This document shows positions 9,403 through 55,489 of a stretch of DNA of 64,000 nucleotides, piece by piece. Every line of letters starts with the position of its first letter. Within the stretch, counting starts at the first letter, position 1. The DNA is from Escherichia coli (GTDB taxonomy: Bacteria > Pseudomonadota > Gammaproteobacteria > Enterobacterales > Enterobacteriaceae), in assembly GCF_044324875.1 (NCBI RefSeq), contig NZ_CP172185.1; one strand, given 5' to 3'. Below the pieces are notes generated by a model. The model searched no databases and was not told the origin of the DNA. It was given only the letters and a program-made list of their open reading frames with translations. The position numbers were made by a program, and so were the translations under genes.

Positions 9403-12400
9403 ATGCAGGTCAGCAGAAGGCAGTTCTTTAAGATCTGCGCTGGCGGTATGGCAGGCACCACGGCGGCGGCACTGGGTTTTGCACCCAGCGTAGCACTCGC
9501 GGAAACCCGGCAGTATAAACTGCTGCGCACCCGCGAAACCCGTAATACCTGCACCTATTGTTCCGTAGGCTGTGGGCTGTTGATGTACAGCCTCGGTGAC
9601 GGAGCAAAAAACGCCAAAGCATCTATCTTCCATATCGAAGGCGATCCGGATCACCCGGTCAACCGCGGTGCACTTTGTCCGAAAGGCGCTGGCCTGGTGG
9701 ATTTCATCCACTCCGAAAGCCGTCTGAAGTTTCCGGAATACCGTGCGCCAGGTTCTGATAAATGGCAGCAAATCAGTTGGGAAGAGGCGTTTGATCGCAT
9801 CGCCAAACTGATGAAAGAAGACCGCGATGCTAACTACATTGCGCAAAACGCCGAAGGCGTGACAGTTAACCGCTGGCTCTCCACCGGGATGCTGTGTGCT
9901 TCCGCGTCGAGTAACGAAACCGGCTATTTAACGCAAAAATTCTCCCGCGCGCTGGGTATGCTCGCGGTCGACAACCAGGCGCGTGTCTGACACGGACCAA
10001 CGGTAGCAAGTCTTGCTCCAACATTTGGTCGCGGTGCGATGACCAACCACTGGGTCGACATCAAGAACGCCAACCTCGTCGTGGTGATGGGCGGTAACGC
10101 CGCTGAAGCTCACCCGGTCGGGTTCCGCTGGGCGATGGAAGCCAAAATTCACAACGGCGCGAAGCTGATTGTGATCGATCCTCGCTTTACGCGTACGGCG
10201 GCGGTGGCTGACTACTATGCCCCTATTCGTTCCGGTACTGACATTGCTTTCCTGTCAGGCGTATTGCTGTACCTGCTGAACAATGAAAAATTCAACCGCG
10301 AATACACCGAAGCCTATACCAACGCCAGCCTGATCGTGCGTGAGGATTACGGCTTTGAAGATGGCCTGTTCACCGGCTATGACGCGGAAAAACGCAAGTA
10401 CGATAAATCCTCCTGGACTTACGAACTGGACGAAAACGGCTTCGCCAAACGCGATACCACGCTGCAACATCCGCGCTGCGTGTGGAACTTGCTGAAACAG
10501 CACGTTTCCCGCTACACGCCAGATGTGGTTGAAAACATCTGTGGTACGCCAAAAGACGCGTTCCTGAAAGTCTGCGAATACATCGCAGAAACCAGTGCTC
10601 ACGATAAAACTGCCTCGTTCCTGTATGCCCTCGGCTGGACGCAACACTCCGTTGGTGCGCAAAACATTCGTACGATGGCGATGATCCAGCTGCTGCTCGG
10701 CAACATGGGGATGGCAGGCGGCGGCGTTAACGCCCTGCGCGGTCACTCCAATATTCAGGGGCTGACGGACCTGGGGCTGCTGTCGCAGAGCCTGCCAGGT
10801 TACATGACGCTGCCAAGCGAGAAGCAGACCGATCTGCAAACCTACCTTACCGCCAACACGCCAAAACCGCTGCTGGAAGGCCAGGTAAACTACTGGGGCA
10901 ACTACCCGAAATTCTTCGTCTCCATGATGAAGGCCTTCTTTGGTGATAAAGCGACGGCGGAAAATAGCTGGGGCTTTGACTGGTTGCCGAAGTGGGATAA
11001 AGGCTACGACGTCCTGCAATACTTCGAGATGATGAAAGAAGGCAAGGTCAATGGCTATATCTGCCAGGGCTTTAACCCTGTTGCCTCATTCCCGAACAAA
11101 AACAAAGTGATCAGTTGTCTGTCGAAACTGAAGTTCCTCGTCACTATCGACCCGCTGAACACTGAAACCTCTAACTTCTGGCAGAACCACGGTGAGCTGA
11201 ACGAAGTTGACTCGTCGAAGATCCAGACCGAAGTGTTCCGTCTGCCATCGACCTGCTTTGCGGAAGAGAACGGTTCTATCGTTAACTCCGGTCGCTGGTT
11301 GCAGTGGCACTGGAAAGGTGCGGACGCCCCAGGGATTGCGCTGACTGATGGCGAGATCCTCTCCGGTATCTTCCTGCGCTTGCGCAAGATGTATGCCGAA
11401 CAGGGTGGCGCGAACCCGGACCAGGTGCTGAACATGACCTGGAACTACGCTATCCCGCATGAGCCGAAGTCGGAAGAAGTAGCGATGGAGAGCAACGGTA
11501 AGGCGCTGGCCGATATTACCGATCCGGCAACCGGTGCGGTTATCGTCAAGAAAGGCCAACAACTTAGCTCGTTCGCCCAACTGCGCGATGACGGTACAAC
11601 CTCCTGTGGCTGCTGGATTTTCGCCGGTAGCTGGACGCCAGAAGGTAACCAGATGGCACGCCGTGATAACGCCGATCCGTCTGGCCTCGGTAACACGCTG
11701 GGCTGGGCATGGGCATGGCCGCTTAACCGCCGCATTCTGTATAACCGCGCCTCCGCAGATCCGCAGGGTAACCCGTGGGATCCGAAGCGTCAGTTGCTGA
11801 AATGGGACGGCACTAAGTGGACCGGCTGGGATATTCCGGACTACAGCGCAGCGCCTCCGGGTAGCGGCGTCGGGCCGTTTATCATGCAGCAGGAAGGCAT
11901 GGGGCGTCTGTTTGCCCTCGATAAGATGGCGGAAGGTCCGTTCCCGGAACACTACGAGCCGTTTGAAACGCCGCTGGGAACTAACCCGCTGCATCCAAAC
12001 GTTATCTCGAACCCGGCTGCACGTATCTTTAAAGACGACGCCGAAGCATTGGGTAAAGCCGATAAGTTCCCGTATGTCGGAACCACCTATCGTCTGACCG
12101 AGCACTTCCACTACTGGACCAAACACGCGCTGTTGAACGCGATTTTGCAACCAGAGCAGTTTGTGGAAATCGGGGAGTCGCTGGCGAATAAACTTGGCAT
12201 TGCCCAGGGCGATACCGTGAAAGTCTCCTCCAACCGTGGCTATATCAAAGCCAAAGCGGTGGTGACCAAACGTATTCGCACGCTGAAAGCGAACGGCAAA
12301 GATATCGATACCATCGGTATTCCGATTCACTGGGGCTATGAAGGTGTTGCGAAAAAAGGCTTTATTGCCAATACGTTAACGCCATTCGTTGGTGATGCGA

Positions 12401-12453
12401 ACACGCAGACGCCAGAGTTTAAGTCCTTCCTTGTGAATGTGGAAAAGGTGTAA
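9403..12453 (+). CDS. fdoG: Formate dehydrogenase-O major subunit, selenocysteine-containing (TGA at 9988-9990 decoded as Sec)
   Basis: Two same-frame ORFs (9403-9990 and 10039-12453) separated only by one in-frame TGA; Tat signal RRQFFK; Cys-rich Fe-S N-terminus; molybdopterin oxidoreductase body; total 1016 codons. Confidence 0.93.
9988..10040 (+). promoter_or_regulatory. Sec UGA codon plus downstream putative SECIS stem-loop
   Basis: Local inverted repeats immediately 3' of the in-frame TGA (AGCAAG..CTTGCT; GGACCAA..TTGGTC). Confidence 0.45.
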
Positions 12454-12465
12454 CGGAGACGACAT

Positions 12466-13368
12466 ATGGCTTATCAATCTCAAGATATCATTCGTCGTTC
12501 CGCGACTAACGGTCTGACCCCCGCGCCTCAGGCGCGGGACTTCCAGGAAGAAGTGGCGAAACTCATCGACGTCACCACCTGTATCGGCTGTAAAGCCTGT
12601 CAGGTGGCGTGTTCAGAGTGGAACGACATTCGCGATACCGTCGGCAATAACATTGGGGTGTACGACAACCCCAATGATTTAAGTGCCAAATCGTGGACGG
12701 TAATGCGCTTCTCGGAAGTGGAGCAGAACGACAAACTGGAATGGCTGATCCGCAAAGACGGCTGTATGCACTGTTCCGATCCAGGCTGCCTGAAAGCGTG
12801 CCCGGCGGAAGGAGCAATTATTCAGTATGCCAACGGTATCGTCGACTTCCAGTCCGAGCAGTGCATCGGCTGCGGTTATTGCATTGCGGGCTGTCCGTTC
12901 GACATTCCGCGCCTCAACCCGGAAGACAACCGCGTCTACAAATGTACGCTGTGCGTTGACCGCGTGGTGGTTGGGCAAGAACCGGCCTGCGTGAAGACCT
13001 GCCCAACGGGCGCGATTCACTTCGGTACGAAAGAGTCGATGAAAACGCTGGCGAGCGAGCGCGTGGCGGAGCTGAAAACTCGCGGTTACGACAATGCGGG
13101 TCTGTACGATCCGGCAGGCGTTGGTGGTACACACGTTATGTACGTGCTGCACCATGCTGACAAGCCAAATCTGTATCATGGCTTGCCGGAGAACCCGGAA
13201 ATCAGCGAAACCGTGAAATTCTGGAAAGGCATCTGGAAACCGCTCGCGGCTGTTGGCTTTGCGGCTACCTTTGCGGCCAGTATCTTCCACTACGTGGGTG
13301 TCGGTCCGAACCGTGCGGATGAGGAAGAGAATAATCTGCACGAAGAGAAAGACGAGGAGCGCAAATGA
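12466..13368 (+). CDS. fdoH: Formate dehydrogenase-O iron-sulfur subunit
   Basis: 300-aa ORF with multiple CxxCxxCxxxCP ferredoxin motifs. Confidence 0.93.
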
Positions 13369-14000
13369 AACGACGTGACACCATCGTGCGCTACACCGCG
13401 CCGGAACGTATCAACCACTGGATCACCGCCTTCTGCTTCATCCTGGCGGCGGTGAGCGGGCTGGGCTTTTTGTTCCCGTCCTTCAACTGGTTGATGCAAA
13501 TCATGGGCACACCGCAGCTGGCGCGAATTCTGCACCCGTTTGTCGGCGTGGTTATGTTTGCCTCGTTCATCATCATGTTTTTCCGTTACTGGCATCACAA
13601 CCTAATCAATCGGGATGATATCTTTTGGGCGAAGAATATTCGTAAGATCGTCGTCAACGAGGAAGTAGGTGACACCGGGCGTTATAACTTCGGTCAGAAA
13701 TGCGTTTTCTGGGCGGCGATTATTTTCCTGGTTCTGCTGCTGGTGAGCGGCGTGATTATCTGGCGTCCTTATTTTGCGCCTGCTTTCTCAATCCCGGTGA
13801 TCCGATTCGCGTTAATGCTGCATTCATTTGCCGCAGTGGCGTTAATTGTGGTTATCATGGTGCATATCTACGCCGCCCTTTGGGTGAAAGGCACGATTAC
13901 CGCCATGGTGGAAGGATGGGTTACCAGCGCCTGGGCGAAGAAACATCACCCGCGCTGGTACCGTGAGGTCCGCAAGACAACGGAAAAGAAAGCTGAATGA
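13365..14000 (+). CDS. fdoI: Formate dehydrogenase-O cytochrome b556 subunit
   Basis: 211-aa membrane protein; start overlaps fdoH stop. Confidence 0.93.
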
Positions 14001-14926
14001 GTATTCGCATAATCCCGCAAGATGAGCTGGGTTCGAGCGAGAAACGTACGGCGGATATGATTCCGCCGTTATTGTTCCCTCGGCTCAAGAATTTATACAA
14101 CCGCCGCGCCGAGCGTCTGCGCGAGCTGGCAGAAAATAATCCGCTGGGTGATTATCTGCGCTTTGCTGCGCTTATCGCCCACGCCCAGGAAGTGGTGCTG
14201 TACGACCATCCGCTGGAAATGGATTTGACCGCACGCATTAAAGAAGCCAGCGCACAAGGCAAGCCCCCGCTGGATATTCACGTTCTACCGCGTGATAAGC
14301 ACTGGCAAAAGCTGCTGATGGCGCTGATTGCTGAGCTGAAACCTGAAATGAGCGGCCCGGCGCTGGCAGTGATTGAGAATCTGGAGAAGGCATCGACCCA
14401 GGAGCTGGAAGATATGGCCAGCGCACTGTTTGCCTCTGATTTCTCGTCCGTCAGCAGTGATAAAGCGCCGTTTATCTGGGCTGCGCTGTCGCTCTACTGG
14501 GCGCAGATGGCTAATCTGATCCCCGGCAAAGCCCGCGCTGAATACGGCGAACAACGTCAATATTGCCCGGTATGTGGCTCTATGCCGGTGTCCAGCATGG
14601 TGCAAATTGGCACCACTCAGGGGCTGCGTTACCTGCACTGCAACCTGTGTGAAACCGAATGGCACGTAGTGCGCGTAAAATGCAGCAACTGCGAGCAGAG
14701 CGGCAAACTGCATTACTGGTCGCTGGATGACGAACAGGCCGCGATTAAAGCCGAAAGCTGCGATGACTGCGGCACTTACCTGAAGATTCTTTATCAGGAA
14801 AAAGAACCGAAAGTTGAAGCCGTGGCAGATGACCTCGCCTCTCTGGTTCTGGATGCGCGAATGGAGCAAGAAGGCTACGCCCGCAGTTCCATCAACCCGT
14901 TCCTGTTTCCGGGTGAAGGGGAGTAA
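13997..14926 (+). CDS. fdhE: Formate dehydrogenase formation protein
   Basis: 309-aa ORF with paired CxxC motifs; start overlaps fdoI stop. Confidence 0.93.
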
Positions 14927-15108
14927 TCTCTGACGTTTTCCGGGTGGCGCTGGTCGCCCGGATTACTGTTGATAGGATGTGGTGACACCCTCTCTCGTAT
15001 TCCGCGTTACCCATTCAAGACCAAGCCATTAGTGCCTGTTTGGCCTCATTCTTCCCGCCAACACATCGATAAGGTTATTGGTATGTCACTGATGACAAGC
15101 GTAAGATT

Positions 15109-16119
<1,011 letters not shown>

Positions 16120-16203
16120 TGATTGGCATCCTGCCAGTCACTCCGGGAATTAACTCTTTTCACCACAGTCTCCATTGCCGTGTTTAAACCAGTGGAGACG
16201 TCA

Positions 16204-17769
16204 ATGTCCAGAAAGAGAAAATCCAGGAGCACTATGGAAACCTGTTTTAAGATCCTTCAGCTCAAGTTCGACAAGAAGCTGACTAACCGTTGTATCGGAC
16301 TGACGTTACACATCAGCGCCTCAACCGTTTTTGAGGTTCTTGCCCGCTTCAAAGCCTCTTCTCTGTCATGGCCATTACCTGCTGATATATCCCATGACAC
16401 GCTGGAGAAACTCATTTTTCCGCCCAAAGACACCTTTGCATCAGAGCTTGTAATGCCTGACATGTTGTACTTCGATACGGAAATGAGAAAACCAGGTGTG
16501 ACGCGGCAACTGTTGTGGATGGAATACAAGGCACAGGCGGGTAACAAAGCGATGGGATACTCGCACTTCTGCCGTTGCTACCGGGAGTGGAAAAAAACGC
16601 GACGTCTCTCCATGCGCCAGGAGCATCGTGCCGGCGAAAAGCTTTTTATCGACTTCTGTGGTCCTACGGTTCCTGTTATTAATCCGGACACCGGTGAGAT
16701 ACGCCGCGTGGCAATCTTCGTGGCCGTAATGGGGGCGTCCAACTATACCTACGTTGAAGCGTGCGAAGGTCAGGACATGATGTCATGGTTAAATGCCCAC
16801 AGCCGTTGCCTGACCTTCCTGGGCGGCGTACCGAAGCTGCTCATCCCCGATAACCTCAGAAGCGCAGTGAAAAAGGCCGATCGATATGAGCCTGTCATCA
16901 ACGACAGTTATCAGGCACTGGCTGAGCACTATGGCACGGTTATCATCCCGGCCCGACCACGCAAACCTAAAGATAAACCAAAAGCAGAAAACGGCGTCCT
17001 CATCGTTGAACGATGGCTTCTTGCCCGCATCCGTAATGAAACCTTCCACACGCTCAGGGCGCTGAATGCGCGCCTTAGGGAGTTACTGACAGACATGAAT
17101 AACCGGCCAATGAAGGGGTACGGCAATCAAACCCGTGCAGAACGCTTCCGCATACTGGATGCGCCAGCACTCTCTCCGCTGCCTCTGGCACCTTATGAAT
17201 ACACGGAATACAAAGCTGTGAAGGTTGGCCCTGACTACCACGTTGAATATGCCCGTCACTGGTACTCCGTTCCACACGAACTGGTCGGTCAGCGTCTGTC
17301 ACTGAAGGCGGGGCAGTCGGTGGTACAGCTCTGGCACAAGGGGCAGTGTGTGGCGCAACATCCGCGCAGCACACATGAATATAAACACACAACCAATCCG
17401 CTTCACATGCCAGAGCGCCACCGGCAGCACGGGACATGGACACCGGAACGCCTGATCGAGCAGGGAAAACGTACGGGCCCGTCCACAGGCCGGGTGGTTG
17501 AATCCATGCTGAAGGCAAAACCCCATCCGGAACTGGCTTATCGTGCAGTTCTGGGGCTGCTGGCACTTCAGAAAAAATACGGCCCGGAACGGCTGGAAAA
17601 GGCCTGTTACGTTGCCCTGCACTATAACGCCCCTGACAGACGCTTTATCGACAATCTGCTGCGTCACCATCGGGAGAACCTGGAGCTTCCATTATCCCGC
17701 CAGGGCGAACAACATCCGGCATATGCTTCAGAGCATGAAAACCTGCGTGGTCCGGGCTACTACCACTGA
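16204..17769 (+). CDS. istA: IS21-family transposase IstA
   Basis: Large ORF with HTH N-terminus and integrase-like core; start uncertain (16204 or 16234). Confidence 0.8.
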   Translation: MSRKRKSRSTMETCFKILQLKFDKKLTNRCIGLTLHISASTVFEVLARFKASSLSWPLPADISHDTLEKLIFPPKDTFASELVMPDMLYFDTEMRKPGVTRQLLWMEYKAQAGNKAMGYSHFCRCYREWKKTRRLSMRQEHRAGEKLFIDFCGPTVPVINPDTGEIRRVAIFVAVMGASNYTYVEACEGQDMMSWLNAHSRCLTFLGGVPKLLIPDNLRSAVKKADRYEPVINDSYQALAEHYGTVIIPARPRKPKDKPKAENGVLIVERWLLARIRNETFHTLRALNARLRELLTDMNNRPMKGYGNQTRAERFRILDAPALSPLPLAPYEYTEYKAVKVGPDYHVEYARHWYSVPHELVGQRLSLKAGQSVVQLWHKGQCVAQHPRSTHEYKHTTNPLHMPERHRQHGTWTPERLIEQGKRTGPSTGRVVESMLKAKPHPELAYRAVLGLLALQKKYGPERLEKACYVALHYNAPDRRFIDNLLRHHRENLELPLSRQGEQHPAYASEHENLRGPGYYH

Positions 17770-17785
17770 CAGAAGGAACAACAGT

Positions 17786-19117
<1,332 letters not shown>

Positions 19118-19159
19118 TGAACTGCACCCCAAATGTTGGACATAATCTGACATCTGAAG

Positions 19160-19690
19160 GTGCAGTTTATGAAACATTCATTTGAAGTAAAACTTGCCGC
19201 TGTAAATCACTACCTGGCTGGTCATGCAGGCATCATTTCTACGGCAAAACTCTTTCAACTTTCTCACACCAGCCTCTCACACTGGATTAATCTTTTTCTT
19301 CTTCACGGTCCTCGGGCACTGGATTGCAGACACAAGCGTAGCTATTCTCCTGAAGATAAACTTTGCGTGGTTCTTTATGCTCTCGGGCATTCTGAGTCTC
19401 TACCCCGGGTAGCTGCCCGGTTTAACATTCCCAGCCACAACACGGTTAAAAACTGGATAAAAGGCTACCGCAAATCTGGTAATGAGGCCTTTATCAGGCG
19501 CTGGAAGGAGAAAAGCATGACCCGTTCTGATGATACCCATGAAAACGAGGCAAACATGACGCCGGAAGAGATGAAGAATGAGCTGCGTTATCTTCGCGCA
19601 GAAAATGCATATCTGAAAGCCATGCAGGAGCATCTCCTGGAAAAAAAGCGCCAGGAGCTGGAGAAAAAACGAAAGTCATCCGGAGCCTGA
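19160..19690 (+). CDS. IS3-family transposase OrfA (HTH)
   Basis: 176-aa ORF with HTH and leucine-zipper-like C-terminus. Confidence 0.8.
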   Translation: MQFMKHSFEVKLAAVNHYLAGHAGIISTAKLFQLSHTSLSHWINLFLLHGPRALDCRHKRSYSPEDKLCVVLYALGHSESLPRVAARFNIPSHNTVKNWIKGYRKSGNEAFIRRWKEKSMTRSDDTHENEANMTPEEMKNELRYLRAENAYLKAMQEHLLEKKRQELEKKRKSSGA

Positions 19691-19794
19691 GGTGCGGACA
19701 CTGCCAGTCTGACCTGTTAAAGGCTGCAGGGCTGGCCAGAAGCACGCTGTACTACCAGCTGTCACTGCAGAAGGCTAAGGACAAGTATGCTGAT

Positions 19795-20576
<782 letters not shown>

Positions 20577-20786
20577 ACGCACGTTGTCAGCAAATGGCGA
20601 AAAAAGTCCCCTTGTTGAATCTTTAAAGAAAGTGTATTTACGCATCACTTTTTATTTTTGCGAGGCGTTTTTCAGATATGAAGTAACAGTTGCAGTTATT
20701 ATAAGTTCAAGTAAAACAGCCTCGTATTAATTCCAGAATAAGGGCATCTGGCTTTTTATTTAATATTCAAGAATGAAAAGTTTTTG

Positions 20787-21005
20787 TCATTCCTTATGCT
20801 CATGACACTCATCATCAACACCTGCTACCTCATCCCTTTGCCTACCGCCTTTTACCTTACGCACCGGAAATTGCTGCCGCTCCAGATATTGCTCCACCGC
20901 TTCGCGTAAAATTGCAGATCGTGAAACCTTACGCCAGCCCCGAAGCTTGTTCAGCCGTTTAATTGCCTCGTCTGATAAATGAAGAAAAACCGTACTCATC
21001 ACCAT
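20787..21005 (-). CDS. yiiE: Ribbon-helix-helix (CopG-like) small DNA-binding protein
   Basis: 72-aa product from ATG 21005 (MVMSTVFLHLSDEAIKRLNKLRGW...); GAGGGGG RBS. Confidence 0.7.
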   Translation of the reverse strand: MVMSTVFLHLSDEAIKRLNKLRGWRKVSRSAILREAVEQYLERQQFPVRKVKGGRQRDEVAGVDDECHEHKE

Positions 21006-21253
21006 CGCCACCCCCTCACATATATCTCTCGTCAATGCATGGTGCGAAAATTACGCCGAAAATTTAATTAATAAAAGCTGATTTTTGCATCTTGTTTTAT
21101 TTTTGCGAGACGTTTTCCAGAAATAATGCAACAGTTGCAGTTATTTCAATTAATATTAAAAAACGGTTCAGCTATCATCCGGGATGATTTACTATTCTTC
21201 ATCAGGTGCTGGCGCACCCACAGGAAAGAAACGATAAACAATAAGGATGAGTT

Positions 21254-21724
21254 ATGGATGCTGATAATATATTATATTCAGGAATGTTTATTTTTTTGAT
21301 CGGTTTTGCATGGATCTTCGGTTGCATCATCCGCATGGTGTACCCGAAAAAAGTCAGCGTCTTTACCGCTCCAGGCTTTAGCGGCGCTGTTACCCTGCCA
21401 AAAGCAGGTGACTATGCGGTGACAATTACACTCCCGCTCAAAAGCGGTATTGCGTCATATCTCCCTGGCGCGAGCTTTTATTCAGCACAGTTTACCATTA
21501 CCGCCTCTGAGAGCCAGCAAGCAATAGCACTACAACGTAAAGGAAAGTGGGGAGCTAATTCTTATAACAAGGATTTTATCGGTAATAAAAGCCATATTAT
21601 TGGGGTATTTAATTGCCCTCAAGCCACGGAGAATTACGACATAGTTTGCACTAATCCACAGATTATTCACGACACCTATAAAGTGGAAATCATAAACTAT
21701 ATCTCTCTCTCGGAAAAAGAATGA
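21254..21724 (+). CDS. Hypothetical membrane-anchored protein
   Basis: 156-aa ORF; AAGGA RBS; N-terminal hydrophobic helix then Ser/Thr/Gly-rich domain; AT-rich. Confidence 0.55.
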   Translation: MDADNILYSGMFIFLIGFAWIFGCIIRMVYPKKVSVFTAPGFSGAVTLPKAGDYAVTITLPLKSGIASYLPGASFYSAQFTITASESQQAIALQRKGKWGANSYNKDFIGNKSHIIGVFNCPQATENYDIVCTNPQIIHDTYKVEIINYISLSEKE

Positions 21725-21795
21725 TGCAAACCATCCCCGGTTGGATCCTTGTTTTTATTGCGGTGGGGTTAATTATTATTCCGCAAGTAAGTTAA
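21721..21795 (+). CDS. Possible 24-aa hydrophobic peptide overlapping the stop of the upstream gene
   Basis: ATGATG overlapping upstream TGA; MMQTIPGWILVFIAVGLIIIPQVS is a single transmembrane-like helix. Confidence 0.25.
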   Translation: MMQTIPGWILVFIAVGLIIIPQVS

Positions 21796-21832
21796 TGGCA
21801 GAGATTACTGCACTGCATCCATCGCAGACCGG

Positions 21833-22141
21833 TCAGTGCTGCCACCAACCGGTCTTTACTTGGTAGTAGTAGTAATTTTGCGGATAACAGTCCGGGAACC
21901 AGACAATTCCTTGTGGATCATCCCCCTTCATCACCCGATAGCATTGGCGTCGATCATCGGCGCGGCGACGAAGAGTAGTATAAAGCCGTTTCCACTCATG
22001 ATCGCCCGGTGTACTGTAGTTTACCCAACACTCCATTGAAGGGTGACGCCATTTACCTGTCAGTGTTGGGATCCCTGAATGATTATGCAGCTTCGCTTTA
22101 CCATTACGATCCCTATCTTTACGCGTATTAAGCGTGGACAT
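21833..22141 (-). CDS. Hypothetical basic protein (102 aa)
   Basis: ORF with AGGAG RBS 8 nt upstream of ATG; no recognisable domain. Confidence 0.5.
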   Translation of the reverse strand: MSTLNTRKDRDRNGKAKLHNHSGIPTLTGKWRHPSMECWVNYSTPGDHEWKRLYTTLRRRADDRRQCYRVMKGDDPQGIVWFPDCYPQNYYYYQVKTGWWQH

Positions 22142-22202
22142 TTTTAGTCTCCTGTTAAGAGTTCTAAAAATGTGCTTCCTTAAAATAGTTCATCATTTTC
22201 CC

Positions 22203-22415
22203 TTAATTCGCATAGCGTGCTTTTGCTCGAATTTCCGATACGCGGGGACCATTATGATAGCGTCGATGCCCACACATCCAACAAGAACAAATACAGGGAG
22301 TACGAAAGCAAATACCTGATGCTTTTTTGCTTCCATCGCCTGCAGTGCGATAACGGCAGCGGATTTTTTTTAATCGCGCCATATGATGGCGACGTTCAGC
22401 ACGATTACGGGTCAT
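22203..22415 (-). CDS. Hypothetical Arg-rich, Cys-rich small protein (70 aa)
   Basis: ORF with AGGAG RBS; CFRTPCICSCWMCGH cluster suggests metal binding; RBS lies in a hairpin arm. Confidence 0.5.
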   Translation of the reverse strand: MTRNRAERRHHMARLKKIRCRYRTAGDGSKKASGICFRTPCICSCWMCGHRRYHNGPRVSEIRAKARYAN

Positions 22416-22422
22416 AGTAAAA

Positions 22423-22528
22423 CTCCTGAGCAGGCGGCACTATGCCGCTTTCATAGGAGTTCTGAATGCTGGTGCTTTCTGTATGGCATAACCATGCCTC
22501 TAACGGTTAAGTGCCTGCAGCACATGTT
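22423..22528. repeat. Copy 1 of a ~100-bp repeat containing a 37-bp palindrome
   Basis: About 85 percent identical to 24240-24343; overlaps the last codons of the HigA-like gene. Confidence 0.6.
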
Positions 22529-22790
22529 GCGGATCATTGGCAATCGCTCGCAGCAAAGCCTTTGCAGGCCCAGTCGGTGAACGTCGCCCCTGCTCCCAGT
22601 TACGCAACGTGTCTACGCTTACGGAAATAAGTTCGGCAAATTTAGATTGTGACAACCCTGAAGCGCGGCGTATTTCTTTGATTTTCATAGCATCAACTTC
22701 AAAAGTCCGTGAAGGGTGTCGCGTTCCTTCAATAATTTCATTCATCTGGGCCATGCTGTGAGTCAACCGCTCAAAAAGTGCCTTATCCAT
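22500..22790 (-). CDS. HTH (XRE-family) antitoxin, HigA-like
   Basis: 96-aa ORF; HTH region SGLSQSKFAELISVSVDTLRNWEQG; start directly after toxin gene stop. Confidence 0.75.
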   Translation of the reverse strand: MDKALFERLTHSMAQMNEIIEGTRHPSRTFEVDAMKIKEIRRASGLSQSKFAELISVSVDTLRNWEQGRRSPTGPAKALLRAIANDPQHVLQALNR

Positions 22791-23102
22791 TTACCACCTC
22801 GTATTTAACAACCGGAGCATTGATTTTTCCTGGGGAGACAGATCATCTTTAATACCCTTACGATAAATAAGCAGTAATCTGATCTCATAATGTTTAACCT
22901 GATGAAAGTAAATAACCCTGACACCAGCACGTTTCCCCTTTCCTCCTGACACCCATCGAACCTTTCTTAACCCACCAGTTTCAGGTATTACCTCACCATA
23001 GTCAGGATTCAAGGCCAGGAAAAACTGAAAACGACTGAATTCATCGTCGGTCAGCAGTTTTTGAACATCTTCAGTAAAAATTTCCGTTTCGATGAAGAGC
23101 AT
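22791..23102 (-). CDS. RelE/HigB-superfamily toxin
   Basis: 103-aa ORF with KGKRAGVRVIY motif; toxin-first gene order typical of HigBA-type modules. Confidence 0.7.
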   Translation of the reverse strand: MLFIETEIFTEDVQKLLTDDEFSRFQFFLALNPDYGEVIPETGGLRKVRWVSGGKGKRAGVRVIYFHQVKHYEIRLLLIYRKGIKDDLSPQEKSMLRLLNTRW

Positions 23103-23330
23103 AATTATACGCCATTGGCTTAGAGTAACAATCCTTTTTGTACGTCATTGACGTACCCTTGAAACCACTAGCTTACTGATAGTGCTCCAGCAAAACCACG
23201 TCTCTGCCGGGTTTGTCTTTACATTTGCGAGGCGCTTTCCAGATTTTTCACGCCCGTGAATTTCCCTGTATCCATCCAGCAAAAACGGGTGTATAAAACT
23301 GTACATTCATACAGCAAAATGAGTTCTACT

Positions 23331-39851: not shown

Positions 39852-39916
39852 AATGGTTCGTCTTTTAGCCGTTTTATTCAGTATAGATTTGCGGCGGAAT
39901 CTAACAGAAAGCAAGC

Positions 39917-40162
39917 AAAGAAAAAAGGCGACAGATTACTCTGTCGCCTTTTTTCCTGACTCATAACCCTTAACGGGTCTTACAATCCTTGCAGGCCGCC
40001 AACACACCCTGTTTTTCCATTAGCCGGAACAATCCGTGTTGATTCCATTTCCGTTTAATTACGTCTCCGGACGTTTGTCTTCCTGACAATCCTCTGTCTT
40101 CGCCTCCTGGCGCTCCTGACCCTCATCCTGAGTCATTGTTCCTGTTAGCGTCCTCGCTCTAT
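39917..40162 (-). ncRNA. csrC: CsrC small RNA (CsrA-sequestering)
   Basis: Reverse complement matches recalled csrC from 5' ATAGAGCGAGGACGCTAACAGGAAC to terminator AGGCGACAGAGTAATCTGTCGCCTTTTTT; many GGA motifs; located between yihI and engB. Confidence 0.8.
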
Positions 40163-41190: not shown

Positions 41191-41299
41191 TAAAAAACGC
41201 CCCAGTCATTACTGACTGGGGCGGCTAAAATATTCAGCCAAATCCGATTACGTGAAGTAAAAGGTCTGAAAGATAGAACATCTTACCTCTGTACCCTAC
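41191..41299 (-). ncRNA. spf: Spot 42 small RNA
   Basis: Reverse complement matches recalled 109-nt Spot 42 (GTAGGGTACAGAGGTAAGATGTTC...GCCCCAGTCAGTAATGACTGGGGCGTTTTTTA). Confidence 0.9.
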
Positions 41300-41446
41300 G
41301 CGACTAACTTTACTCTTTTTTGTTCAGTTCAGAAAGCATTTTTTGTAATTTTTTTTCAGTTGTTGCATAGGAATTTCTAATAGCCATCACAAAACGTGAC
41401 AGCTTATGTTGCTTACTTACGAAAAAAGGGCATGTTCAGGCGAATC

Positions 41447-50393: not shown

Positions 50394-50513
50394 ATGCCTG
50401 GCAGTTCCCTACTCTCGCATGGGGAGACCCCACACTACCATCGGCGCTACGGCGTTTCACTTCTGAGTTCGGCATGGGGTCAGGTGGGACCACCGCGCTA
50501 CGGCCGCCAGGCA
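50394..50513 (-). rRNA. rrfA: 5S ribosomal RNA
   Basis: 120 nt; reverse complement matches recalled E. coli 5S (TGCCTGGCGGCC...CTGCCAGGCAT). Confidence 0.95.
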
Positions 50514-50605
50514 AATTCTGTTTATCAGACCGCTTCTGCGTTCTGATTTAATCTGTATCAGGCTGAAAATCTTTCTCTCATCCGCCAAAACATCTTCGGC
50601 GTTGT

Positions 50606-53510
<2,905 letters not shown>

Positions 53511-53684
53511 TCACAACCCGAAGATGTTTCACTTCAGAGTTGCGAAAATTTGAGAGACTCACGAACAACTTTCGTTGTTCAGTGTTTCAATTTTCAGCTT
53601 GATCCAGATTTTTAAAGAGCAAAACTTCGCAGTGAACCTTTGCAGGTACACTCTGAAGTATTTTTTATTTAATCACTACAGAGA

Positions 53685-53760
53685 TGGTGGAGCTATGCGG
53701 GATCGAACCGCAGACCTCCTGCGTGCAAAGCAGGCGCTCTCCCAGCTGAGCTATAGCCCC
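53685..53760 (-). tRNA. alaT: tRNA-Ala (anticodon UGC)
   Basis: 76 nt; reverse complement GGGGCTATAGCTCAGCTGGGAGAGCGCCTGCTTTGCACGCAGGAGGTCTGCGGTTCGATCCCGCATAGCTCCACCA. Confidence 0.95.
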
Positions 53761-53802
53761 ATAACATGTAGTTAAAACCTCTTCAAATTTGCGGTGCAAA
53801 TT

Positions 53803-53879
<77 letters not shown>

Positions 53880-53947
53880 GTAGAGGTTTTACTGCTCATT
53901 TTCATCAGACAATCTGTGTGAGCACTGCAAAGCACAGTTCTTTAAGG

Positions 53948-55489
<1,542 letters not shown>

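What the first reader, a model, noticed from the sequence alone, without database searches (positions are those of the whole stretch)
9403..12453. Selenocysteine recoding in fdoG
Two long ORFs in the same frame are separated only by a single TGA at 9988-9990, at the position expected for the catalytic Sec of formate dehydrogenase; automated callers would split the gene. Local inverted repeats immediately downstream are candidates for the SECIS hairpin.
Basis: partly seen in the sequence, partly recalled or inferred. Interest (0 to 1): 0.25.

Follow-up and report, generated by a model that had tools for sequence, protein, structure and literature searches.

The report
Known selenocysteine codon in fdoG

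Summary
One reading frame runs from ATG 9403 to TAA 12451-12453. It is interrupted only by TGA 9988-9990, which is codon 196. The gene is fdoG of Escherichia coli: it is 98.85% identical in DNA to K-12 b3894, with 2 amino-acid differences. It lies in the usual fdoG-fdoH-fdoI-fdhE operon, with fdhD divergent upstream. The TGA aligns with the selenocysteine position (residue 196) of the solved FdnG structure 1KQF, and also with the Sec of the Desulfovibrio formate dehydrogenases. The RNA from 9985 to 10043 matches Rfam SECIS_3 (RF01989) at 84.3 bits, above the curated threshold of 63. K-12 fdoG and fdnG give the same score. The predicted hairpin has a bulged U17 and G23/U24 in the apical loop, at the canonical distance from the UGA. 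The 71 nt starting at 9985 are identical between fdoG and its 75%-identical paralogue fdnG. That is the longest identical run between the two genes. The 75 nt around the UGA are at least 99% identical in 5322 of 5433 matching E. coli records. RefSeq already annotates the gene as one CDS, so only naive ORF finders split it. Verdict: already known, low interest.

The parts
9403..12453 (+). fdoG, the catalytic alpha subunit of formate dehydrogenase-O. It has 1016 residues including Sec196. It carries a Tat signal (SRRQFFK at residues 4-10), 4Fe-4S ligands Cys50/53/57/92, His197 and Arg446.
   Evidence: Translation. 98.85% nt identity and 2 aa differences (G571S, S689K) against K-12 b3894. TIGR01553 at 1573.9 bits, cut-off 814.2. 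Pfam Molybdop_Fe4S4, Molybdopterin and Molydop_binding. 1kqf_A at E = 0 over residues 1-1015. Motif positions.
9988..9990 (+). UGA codon 196, recoded as selenocysteine (the Mo ligand).
   Evidence: It is the only internal stop. It aligns with the Sec position (X196) of 1kqf_A and with the Sec of 8cm4_A. K-12 fdoG and fdnG have TGA at the same codon.
9985..10043 (+). Bacterial SECIS element of the fdnG/fdoG type. The hairpin pairs 9990-10035 and its upper stem-loop spans 10002-10019. U17 is bulged at 10004. The apical loop G23-U24-C25 lies at 10010-10012.
   Evidence: Rfam RF01989 SECIS_3 at 84.3 bits, gathering score 63, full-length match 1-59/59. MFE structure. Numbering from the U of UGA. 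71-nt perfect identity with fdnG starting at 9985.
12466..13368 (+). fdoH, the Fe-S beta subunit.
   Evidence: TIGR01582 at 478.7 bits, cut-off 334.7. RefSeq annotation of the matching locus.
13365..14000 (+). fdoI, the cytochrome b556 gamma subunit.
   Evidence: NF007924 at 453.3 bits, cut-off 341. The FDH-N gamma model NF007558 scores only 243.6 bits, below its cut-off of 339.
13997..14926 (+). fdhE, a formate dehydrogenase accessory protein. A terminator-like hairpin follows at 14939-14962.
   Evidence: NF002925 at 604.1 bits. Terminator-like site.
8376..9209 (-). fdhD, the divergent accessory sulfurtransferase needed to mature all three E. coli formate dehydrogenases.
   Evidence: TIGR00129 at 340 bits. 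Annotation. Role as described in PMC6239281.

Best explanation
Positions 9403-12453 are one gene, fdoG. It encodes the periplasmic molybdenum (bis-MGD) catalytic subunit of the E. coli formate dehydrogenase-O. The UGA at 9988-9990 is read as selenocysteine 196. The mRNA immediately 3' of the UGA folds into the SECIS hairpin (9990-10035). The specialised elongation factor SelB, carrying Sec-tRNA(Sec), binds the hairpin's upper stem-loop (bulged U17, loop G23/U24). Because that stem-loop sits 11 nt from the UGA, the tRNA is delivered to the ribosomal A site in competition with release factor 2. The same nucleotides also encode the active-site peptide U-HGPTVASLAPTFGRG. Shown here: the gene's identity, the position of the TGA at the Sec column, a SECIS match above the curated threshold, its canonical geometry, and its conservation. 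Inferred from established knowledge of E. coli: SelB binding, actual Sec insertion, and the presence of selA, selB, selC and selD elsewhere in the genome.
For: There is a single in-frame TGA at codon 196. The gene is 98.85% identical in DNA to K-12 fdoG, with no differences in codons 185-225. The TGA aligns to the Sec column of 1kqf_A (FdnG) and 8cm4_A. TIGR01553 and the Pfam domains span both halves, which is as expected for one protein. Rfam SECIS_3 scores 84.3 bits against a threshold of 63, and K-12 fdoG and fdnG score the same, while fdhF matches the sister model SECIS_2. The MFE fold has a bulged U at +17 and G23/U24 in the apical loop, matching the determinants summarised in PMC8659212. 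The 71 nt from 9985 are identical between fdoG and fdnG, although the two genes are 75% identical overall and only 58% of same-amino-acid codons are identical. This is the only place in the gene where 20 consecutive codons are identical (P about 3e-5 under independence). The 75 nt around the UGA are at least 99% identical in 5322 of 5433 E. coli records, against 652 for the whole gene. The second ORF's ATG at 10039 has no Shine-Dalgarno sequence, whereas ATG 9403 has AAGGAG. PMC6239281 states that all three E. coli FDH catalytic subunits use a selenocysteine ligand.
Against: Nothing in the data contradicts it. There are three limits. The hairpin's folding energy is not better than shuffled sequence (z = -0.56). 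The window holds no tRNA-Sec or sel genes, so the decoding machinery is assumed from species identity. The perfect fdoG/fdnG identity could partly reflect gene conversion between the paralogues rather than selection alone.
Confidence: 0.98

Rival explanations
1. The TGA is a nonsense mutation. On this reading fdoG is a pseudogene in this strain, and only a 195-residue fragment is made.
For: A mechanical ORF call ends at 9990. Under selenium limitation, termination at this UGA is expected to occur to some extent (established knowledge of RF2 competition; PMC8124441).
Against: K-12 fdoG and fdnG have the same TGA at the same codon, and it sits at the Sec column of solved structures. An intact SECIS follows it. 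The 820 downstream codons stay open, with only 2 aa changes against K-12. The segment is conserved in 5425 of 5426 E. coli genomes.
Confidence: 0.01
2. There are two separate genes, 9403-9990 and 10039-12453, translated independently.
For: Both appear as ORFs with ATG starts.
Against: There is no Shine-Dalgarno sequence before ATG 10039. The residues between 9991 and 10038 are conserved active-site sequence, aligned without a gap to FdnG. The single-protein models TIGR01553 and PF00384 span the junction. RefSeq annotates one CDS.
Confidence: 0.005
3. The UGA is read by ordinary near-cognate read-through (Trp or Cys insertion) rather than by SelB-dependent Sec insertion.
For: None specific. Low-level UGA read-through does exist in E. 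coli (general knowledge).
Against: A canonical SECIS sits at the correct spacing. The position is the Mo-ligating Sec in the homologous structures. The literature states that the three E. coli FDHs coordinate Mo with Sec.
Confidence: 0.005

Closest known systems
E. coli K-12 fdoG (b3894, NP_418330.1), formate dehydrogenase-O alpha subunit, Sec196
   Same: Same length (3051 nt). TGA at the same codon, 196. The 63 nt after the UGA are identical. Same operon, fdoGHI-fdhE, with divergent fdhD. 98.85% DNA identity.
   Different: 35 nucleotide differences and 2 amino-acid differences (G571S, S689K). None lies in codons 185-225.
E. coli FdnG (formate dehydrogenase-N alpha subunit; PDB 1KQF/1KQG) and its SECIS (Rfam RF01989 SECIS_3)
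   Same: 77% amino-acid identity. Sec at residue 196. The 71-nt UGA/SECIS segment is identical and gives the same Rfam score of 84.3 bits.
   Different: It is a paralogue at another locus (fdnGHI, nitrate-inducible). The neighbours in the window are the FDH-O-specific fdoI and fdhE.
E. coli fdhF SECIS (Rfam RF01988 SECIS_2), the experimentally dissected model SECIS
   Same: UGA-CAC-GG start. Bulged U17. G23 and U24 in the apical loop. Same spacing from the UGA.
   Different: The stem sequences differ, and the loop is GGUC in fdhF against A-GUC-U in the window. The window scores only 28.1 bits on SECIS_2 (gathering score 70), and fdhF scores only 35.8 bits on SECIS_3.

Membership tests
Bacterial SECIS element, fdnG/fdoG type (Rfam RF01989 SECIS_3) | Covariance-model score at or above the curated gathering score | tested here: met
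   84.3 bits against 63, full-length match 1-59/59 at 9985-10043. K-12 fdoG and fdnG give the same score.
Bacterial SECIS element, fdnG/fdoG type (Rfam RF01989 SECIS_3) | Located immediately 3' of an in-frame UGA inside a coding sequence | tested here: met
   The UGA at 9988-9990 is model positions 4-6, and the hairpin begins at 9990.
Bacterial SECIS element, fdnG/fdoG type (Rfam RF01989 SECIS_3) | Upper stem-loop 11 nt from the UGA, with a bulged U17 and G23/U24 in the apical loop (SelB contacts, as summarised in PMC8659212) | tested here: met
   Counting from the U of UGA, U17 is 10004 and is unpaired between two helices. G23 and U24 are 10010 and 10011, in the loop of the MFE fold.
Bacterial SECIS element, fdnG/fdoG type (Rfam RF01989 SECIS_3) | Binds SelB and directs Sec insertion in vivo | not testable with these tools
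   Inferred from sequence identity with the K-12 fdoG and fdnG elements.
Formate dehydrogenase-N/O alpha subunit (NCBIfam TIGR01553 equivalog) | Whole-protein score above the curated cut-off, and full-length homology to a solved member | tested here: met
   1573.9 bits against 814.2. 1kqf_A at E = 0, residues 1-1015 aligned to 1-1014.
Formate dehydrogenase-N/O alpha subunit (NCBIfam TIGR01553 equivalog) | Sec (UGA) at the Mo-ligand position, followed by His | tested here: met
   VDNQARV-U-HGPTVASL aligns with VDNQARV-X-HGPTVASL of 1kqf_A. The Desulfovibrio Sec-FDH shows QARI-X-HS.
Formate dehydrogenase-N/O alpha subunit (NCBIfam TIGR01553 equivalog) | Tat signal, N-terminal 4Fe-4S Cys motif, molybdopterin and MGD-binding domains | tested here: met
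   SRRQFFK at residues 4-10. Cys50/53/57/92. PF04879, PF00384 and PF01568.
fdoG specifically (FDH-O, not FDH-N) | Orthology and synteny: fdoH-fdoI-fdhE downstream and fdhD divergent upstream | tested here: met
   98.85% nt identity to b3894, against 75% to fdnG. The gamma subunit passes NF007924 (FDH-O) and fails NF007558 (FDH-N). FdhE and FdhD models match. The gene order is the same in K-12.
Sec-decoding trait of the host genome | selA, selB, selC (tRNA-Sec) and selD present | not testable with these tools
   The only tRNAs in the window are tRNA-Ala and tRNA-Ile of the rrn operon. In E. coli the sel genes lie elsewhere (my own knowledge).

The most novel reading that the evidence does not exclude
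The only mildly non-textbook readings left open are two. First, the perfect 71-nt identity of the UGA/SECIS segment between fdoG and fdnG may be maintained by recurrent gene conversion between the paralogues, rather than solely by the combined protein and RNA constraint. Second, the fdoG 5' UTR (9234-9402) may retain a diverged version of the Rfam 'FdoG-1 5' UTR thermometer', which would make FDH-O translation temperature-sensitive in E. coli. That match is below threshold in both the window and K-12, and most of its score comes from the conserved Shine-Dalgarno sequence and first codons.
Probability: 0.1. Interest if true: 0.2.

Novelty: already known. Interest (0 to 1): 0.05.

Why it matters
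For annotation, this is a correct call. The two ORFs should be merged into one selenoprotein CDS with a translation exception at codon 196. Public annotation pipelines already do this. It adds nothing new to biology, because Sec196 of FdoG and the fdnG/fdoG-type SECIS are long established and have a curated Rfam model.

Tried and rejected
(1) Folding energy as evidence for the hairpin. The MFE is -17.4 kcal/mol and z = -0.56 against shuffles. This is not discriminating, so I relied on the covariance model and conservation instead.

(2) Pseudogene or two-gene readings. Both were rejected on the alignment to 1KQF, the absence of an RBS at 10039, and conservation.

(3) The Rfam 'FdoG1_thermometer' hit at 9234-9432. 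It scores 32 bits, below the gathering score of 50. K-12 scores 36.4, also below threshold. The well-aligned part is the SD and the first ~10 codons. I did not accept it as a member.

(4) A crude pattern for further SECIS-like sites, TGA-N11-GGT-N5-GT. It gave three other matches (46751+, 51886+, 31570-), one of them inside 23S rRNA. None is supported by Rfam. I treated them as chance.

(5) The first PDB search failed because 'U' is not accepted as a residue, so I repeated it with X. PMC139081 (Thanbichler and Böck 2002) is not held in the library.

(6) I ran no further search on cross-species SECIS covariation. The curated Rfam model already captures it, and the finding is ordinary.

Full report
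**Observation.** The sequence is exactly as described. ATG at 9403 is preceded by AAGGAG 7 nt upstream. It opens a frame of 1017 codons that ends with TAA at 12451-12453. The frame contains one internal stop, TGA at 9988-9990, which is codon 196. A mechanical ORF list splits the frame into 9403..9990 (195 aa) and 10039..12453 (804 aa). The ATG at 10039 has no Shine-Dalgarno sequence, and the codons between 9991 and 10038 are open.

**Identity of the gene.** A megablast of 9300-12500 finds the locus in 5425 of 5426 complete E. coli genomes, with a best identity of 99.3%. Against K-12 MG1655, the window's gene is collinear with fdoG (b3894). There are 35 nucleotide differences in 3051 nt (98.85% identity) and two amino-acid differences, G571S and S689K. 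K-12 has TGA at the same codon, 196.

The read-through protein passes NCBIfam TIGR01553 (FDH-N/O alpha subunit) at 1573.9 bits against a cut-off of 814.2. It carries the Pfam domains Molybdop_Fe4S4, Molybdopterin and Molydop_binding on both sides of the TGA. It also has a twin-arginine signal (SRRQFFK, residues 4-10), the 4Fe-4S cysteines 50/53/57/92, His197 and Arg446.

The downstream genes are:
- fdoH, 12466-13368
- fdoI, 13365-14000, which passes the FDH-O-specific model NF007924 and fails the FDH-N gamma model
- fdhE, 13997-14926, followed by a terminator-like hairpin at 14939-14962

fdhD lies divergently at 8376-9209. So the gene is fdoG and not its paralogue fdnG, even though PGAP-annotated RefSeq genomes label it 'fdnG: formate dehydrogenase-N subunit alpha'.

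**Is the TGA at the Sec position?** Yes. In the phmmer alignment to the solved FdnG structure 1kqf_A (E = 0, residues 1-1015), the query's VDNQARV-X-HGPTVASL lies over the chain's VDNQARV-X-HGPTVASL. The X in the chain is the selenocysteine. The Desulfovibrio selenocysteine-containing FDH (8cm4_A) shows QARI-X-HS in the same column. K-12 fdnG (codon 196) and fdhF (codon 140) have their TGA in the homologous ARV-U-HGP context. The literature held in the library states that all three E. coli FDH catalytic subunits coordinate bis-MGD with a selenocysteine ligand (PMC6239281).

**The SECIS element.** Rfam's covariance model SECIS_3 (RF01989) matches 9985-10043 over its full length at 84.3 bits, against a gathering score of 63. 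The E-value is 1.4e-18 for the whole 64-kb window. K-12 fdoG and fdnG give the identical score. fdhF matches the sister model SECIS_2 at 87.1 bits, so SECIS_3 is the fdnG/fdoG type.

The minimum-free-energy fold pairs 9990-10035. Counting from the U of UGA, G15-G16 pair with C31-C32, U17 (10004) is bulged, and A18-A22 pair with U26-U30. G23-U24-C25 (10010-10012) form the apical loop. These are the determinants given for the E. coli SECIS in the review PMC8659212: an upper stem-loop 11 nt from the UGA, a bulged U17, and G23 and U24 in the loop, with U17 and G23 contacting SelB. The folding energy itself is unremarkable (z = -0.56), so thermodynamics alone would not have picked this hairpin out.

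**Conservation beyond chance.** fdoG (window) and fdnG (K-12) are 77% identical in protein and 75% in DNA. Only 58% of codons that encode the same amino acid are identical. Even so, the longest run of identical nucleotides between them is 71 nt and starts at 9985 (GTC-TGA plus 65 nt). It is the only place where 20 consecutive codons are identical, with P about 3e-5 if codons were independent. Within E. coli, the 75 nt around the UGA are at least 99% identical in 5322 of 5433 records, whereas the whole gene reaches that level in only 652. This pattern fits a combined constraint from the active-site peptide and the RNA structure. Gene conversion between the paralogues could also contribute and was not excluded.

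**Mechanism.** The shown parts are listed above. The inferred part, from established knowledge summarised in PMC8124441 and PMC8659212, is as follows. SelB-GTP carrying Sec-tRNA(Sec) binds the upper stem-loop of the SECIS through its C-terminal winged-helix domains. It delivers the tRNA to the UGA in the A site, in competition with RF2. The resulting Sec196 ligates the molybdenum of bis-MGD. The window contains no tRNA-Sec. In E. coli the sel genes lie elsewhere (my own knowledge), so their presence in this strain is assumed.

**Rivals.** A pseudogene, two independent genes, or non-specific read-through are each contradicted by three lines of evidence: the alignment to solved structures, the intact and conserved SECIS, and the intact downstream 820 codons.

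**Novelty and verdict.** This is the known Sec196 codon and SECIS of E. coli fdoG, already annotated as a single CDS in RefSeq. Its remark about automated callers applies only to naive ORF finders. Interest is low.

**Context seen in passing.** Relative to K-12, the window shows the following differences:
- about 5.4 kb of IS elements directly downstream of fdhE (15135-20594)
- about 5 kb of further accessory DNA (21191-26158)
- loss of about 14.5 kb from yihM to yihX, which includes the sulfoquinovose catabolic cluster
- an extra carbohydrate porin gene between rhaM and frvA
- a truncated yiiG

Noticed in passing
window 15135-20594: About 5.4 kb directly downstream of fdhE has no counterpart in K-12, where the same junction spans about 0.4 kb. 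In other E. coli genomes it matches IS21-family (istA/istB), IS110-family and IS3-like IS1397 transposase genes. No complete E. coli genome in the collection covers 80% or more of 15100-26200 in one place.
   Followed up: partly
window 21191-26158: About 5 kb of accessory DNA lies between the yiiE/yiiF-like region and fabY, and is absent from K-12. In matching genomes it is annotated as alpha/beta hydrolase, NadS family protein, several hypothetical proteins and a transposase.
   Followed up: partly
window 29058-29821: About 14.5 kb of K-12 (4061530-4076042) is missing and replaced by about 760 bp. The missing stretch runs from inside yihM to inside yihX. It includes yihN, ompL and the sulfoquinovose catabolism cluster yihO-yihV/csqR.
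   Followed up: partly
window 970-2747: About 1.8 kb lies between rhaM and frvA that K-12 lacks. It is annotated as a carbohydrate porin in the 2544 E. coli genomes that hold most of it.
   Followed up: partly
window ~8280-8287: About 470 bp of K-12 yiiG sequence is missing at this junction. The most similar RefSeq genome annotates a YiiG-family pseudogene here ('incomplete; missing N-terminus').
   Followed up: no
window 9234-9432: There is a sub-threshold match to Rfam RF02778, 'FdoG-1 5' UTR thermometer'. It scores 32 bits in the window and 36.4 in K-12, against a gathering score of 50. The confident part of the alignment is the Shine-Dalgarno sequence and the first ~10 codons, and the upstream helices are poorly matched.
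   Followed up: partly
window 9985-10055, compared with K-12 fdnG (L002 684-754): There is a 71-nt run of perfect identity between the paralogues fdoG and fdnG, centred on the UGA/SECIS. It is the longest identical run in the genes; the next longest is 37 nt. It may reflect combined protein and RNA constraint, or gene conversion.
   Followed up: partly
window ~11443-11502 (fdoG nt 2041-2100): Eight of the 35 differences from K-12 fdoG fall within 60 nt, including the multi-nucleotide S689K change. Most other 60-nt bins have 0-2 differences. This could be a small recombination patch.
   Followed up: no
RefSeq annotation of the matching locus (L001 4104-7154, hits H1-H15): PGAP-annotated E. coli genomes name this gene 'fdnG: formate dehydrogenase-N subunit alpha', although its neighbours are named fdoH and fdoI. 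This is a naming inconsistency for the FDH-O alpha subunit.
   Followed up: yes
window 50396-55489 (- strand); 39909-40162; 41191-41309: A complete rrn operon (16S, tRNA-Ile, tRNA-Ala, 23S, 5S) corresponds to rrnA of K-12. The sRNAs CsrC and Spot 42 are also present, along with ES222, STnc370 and StyR-44 matches. All are as expected for this chromosomal region.
   Followed up: no
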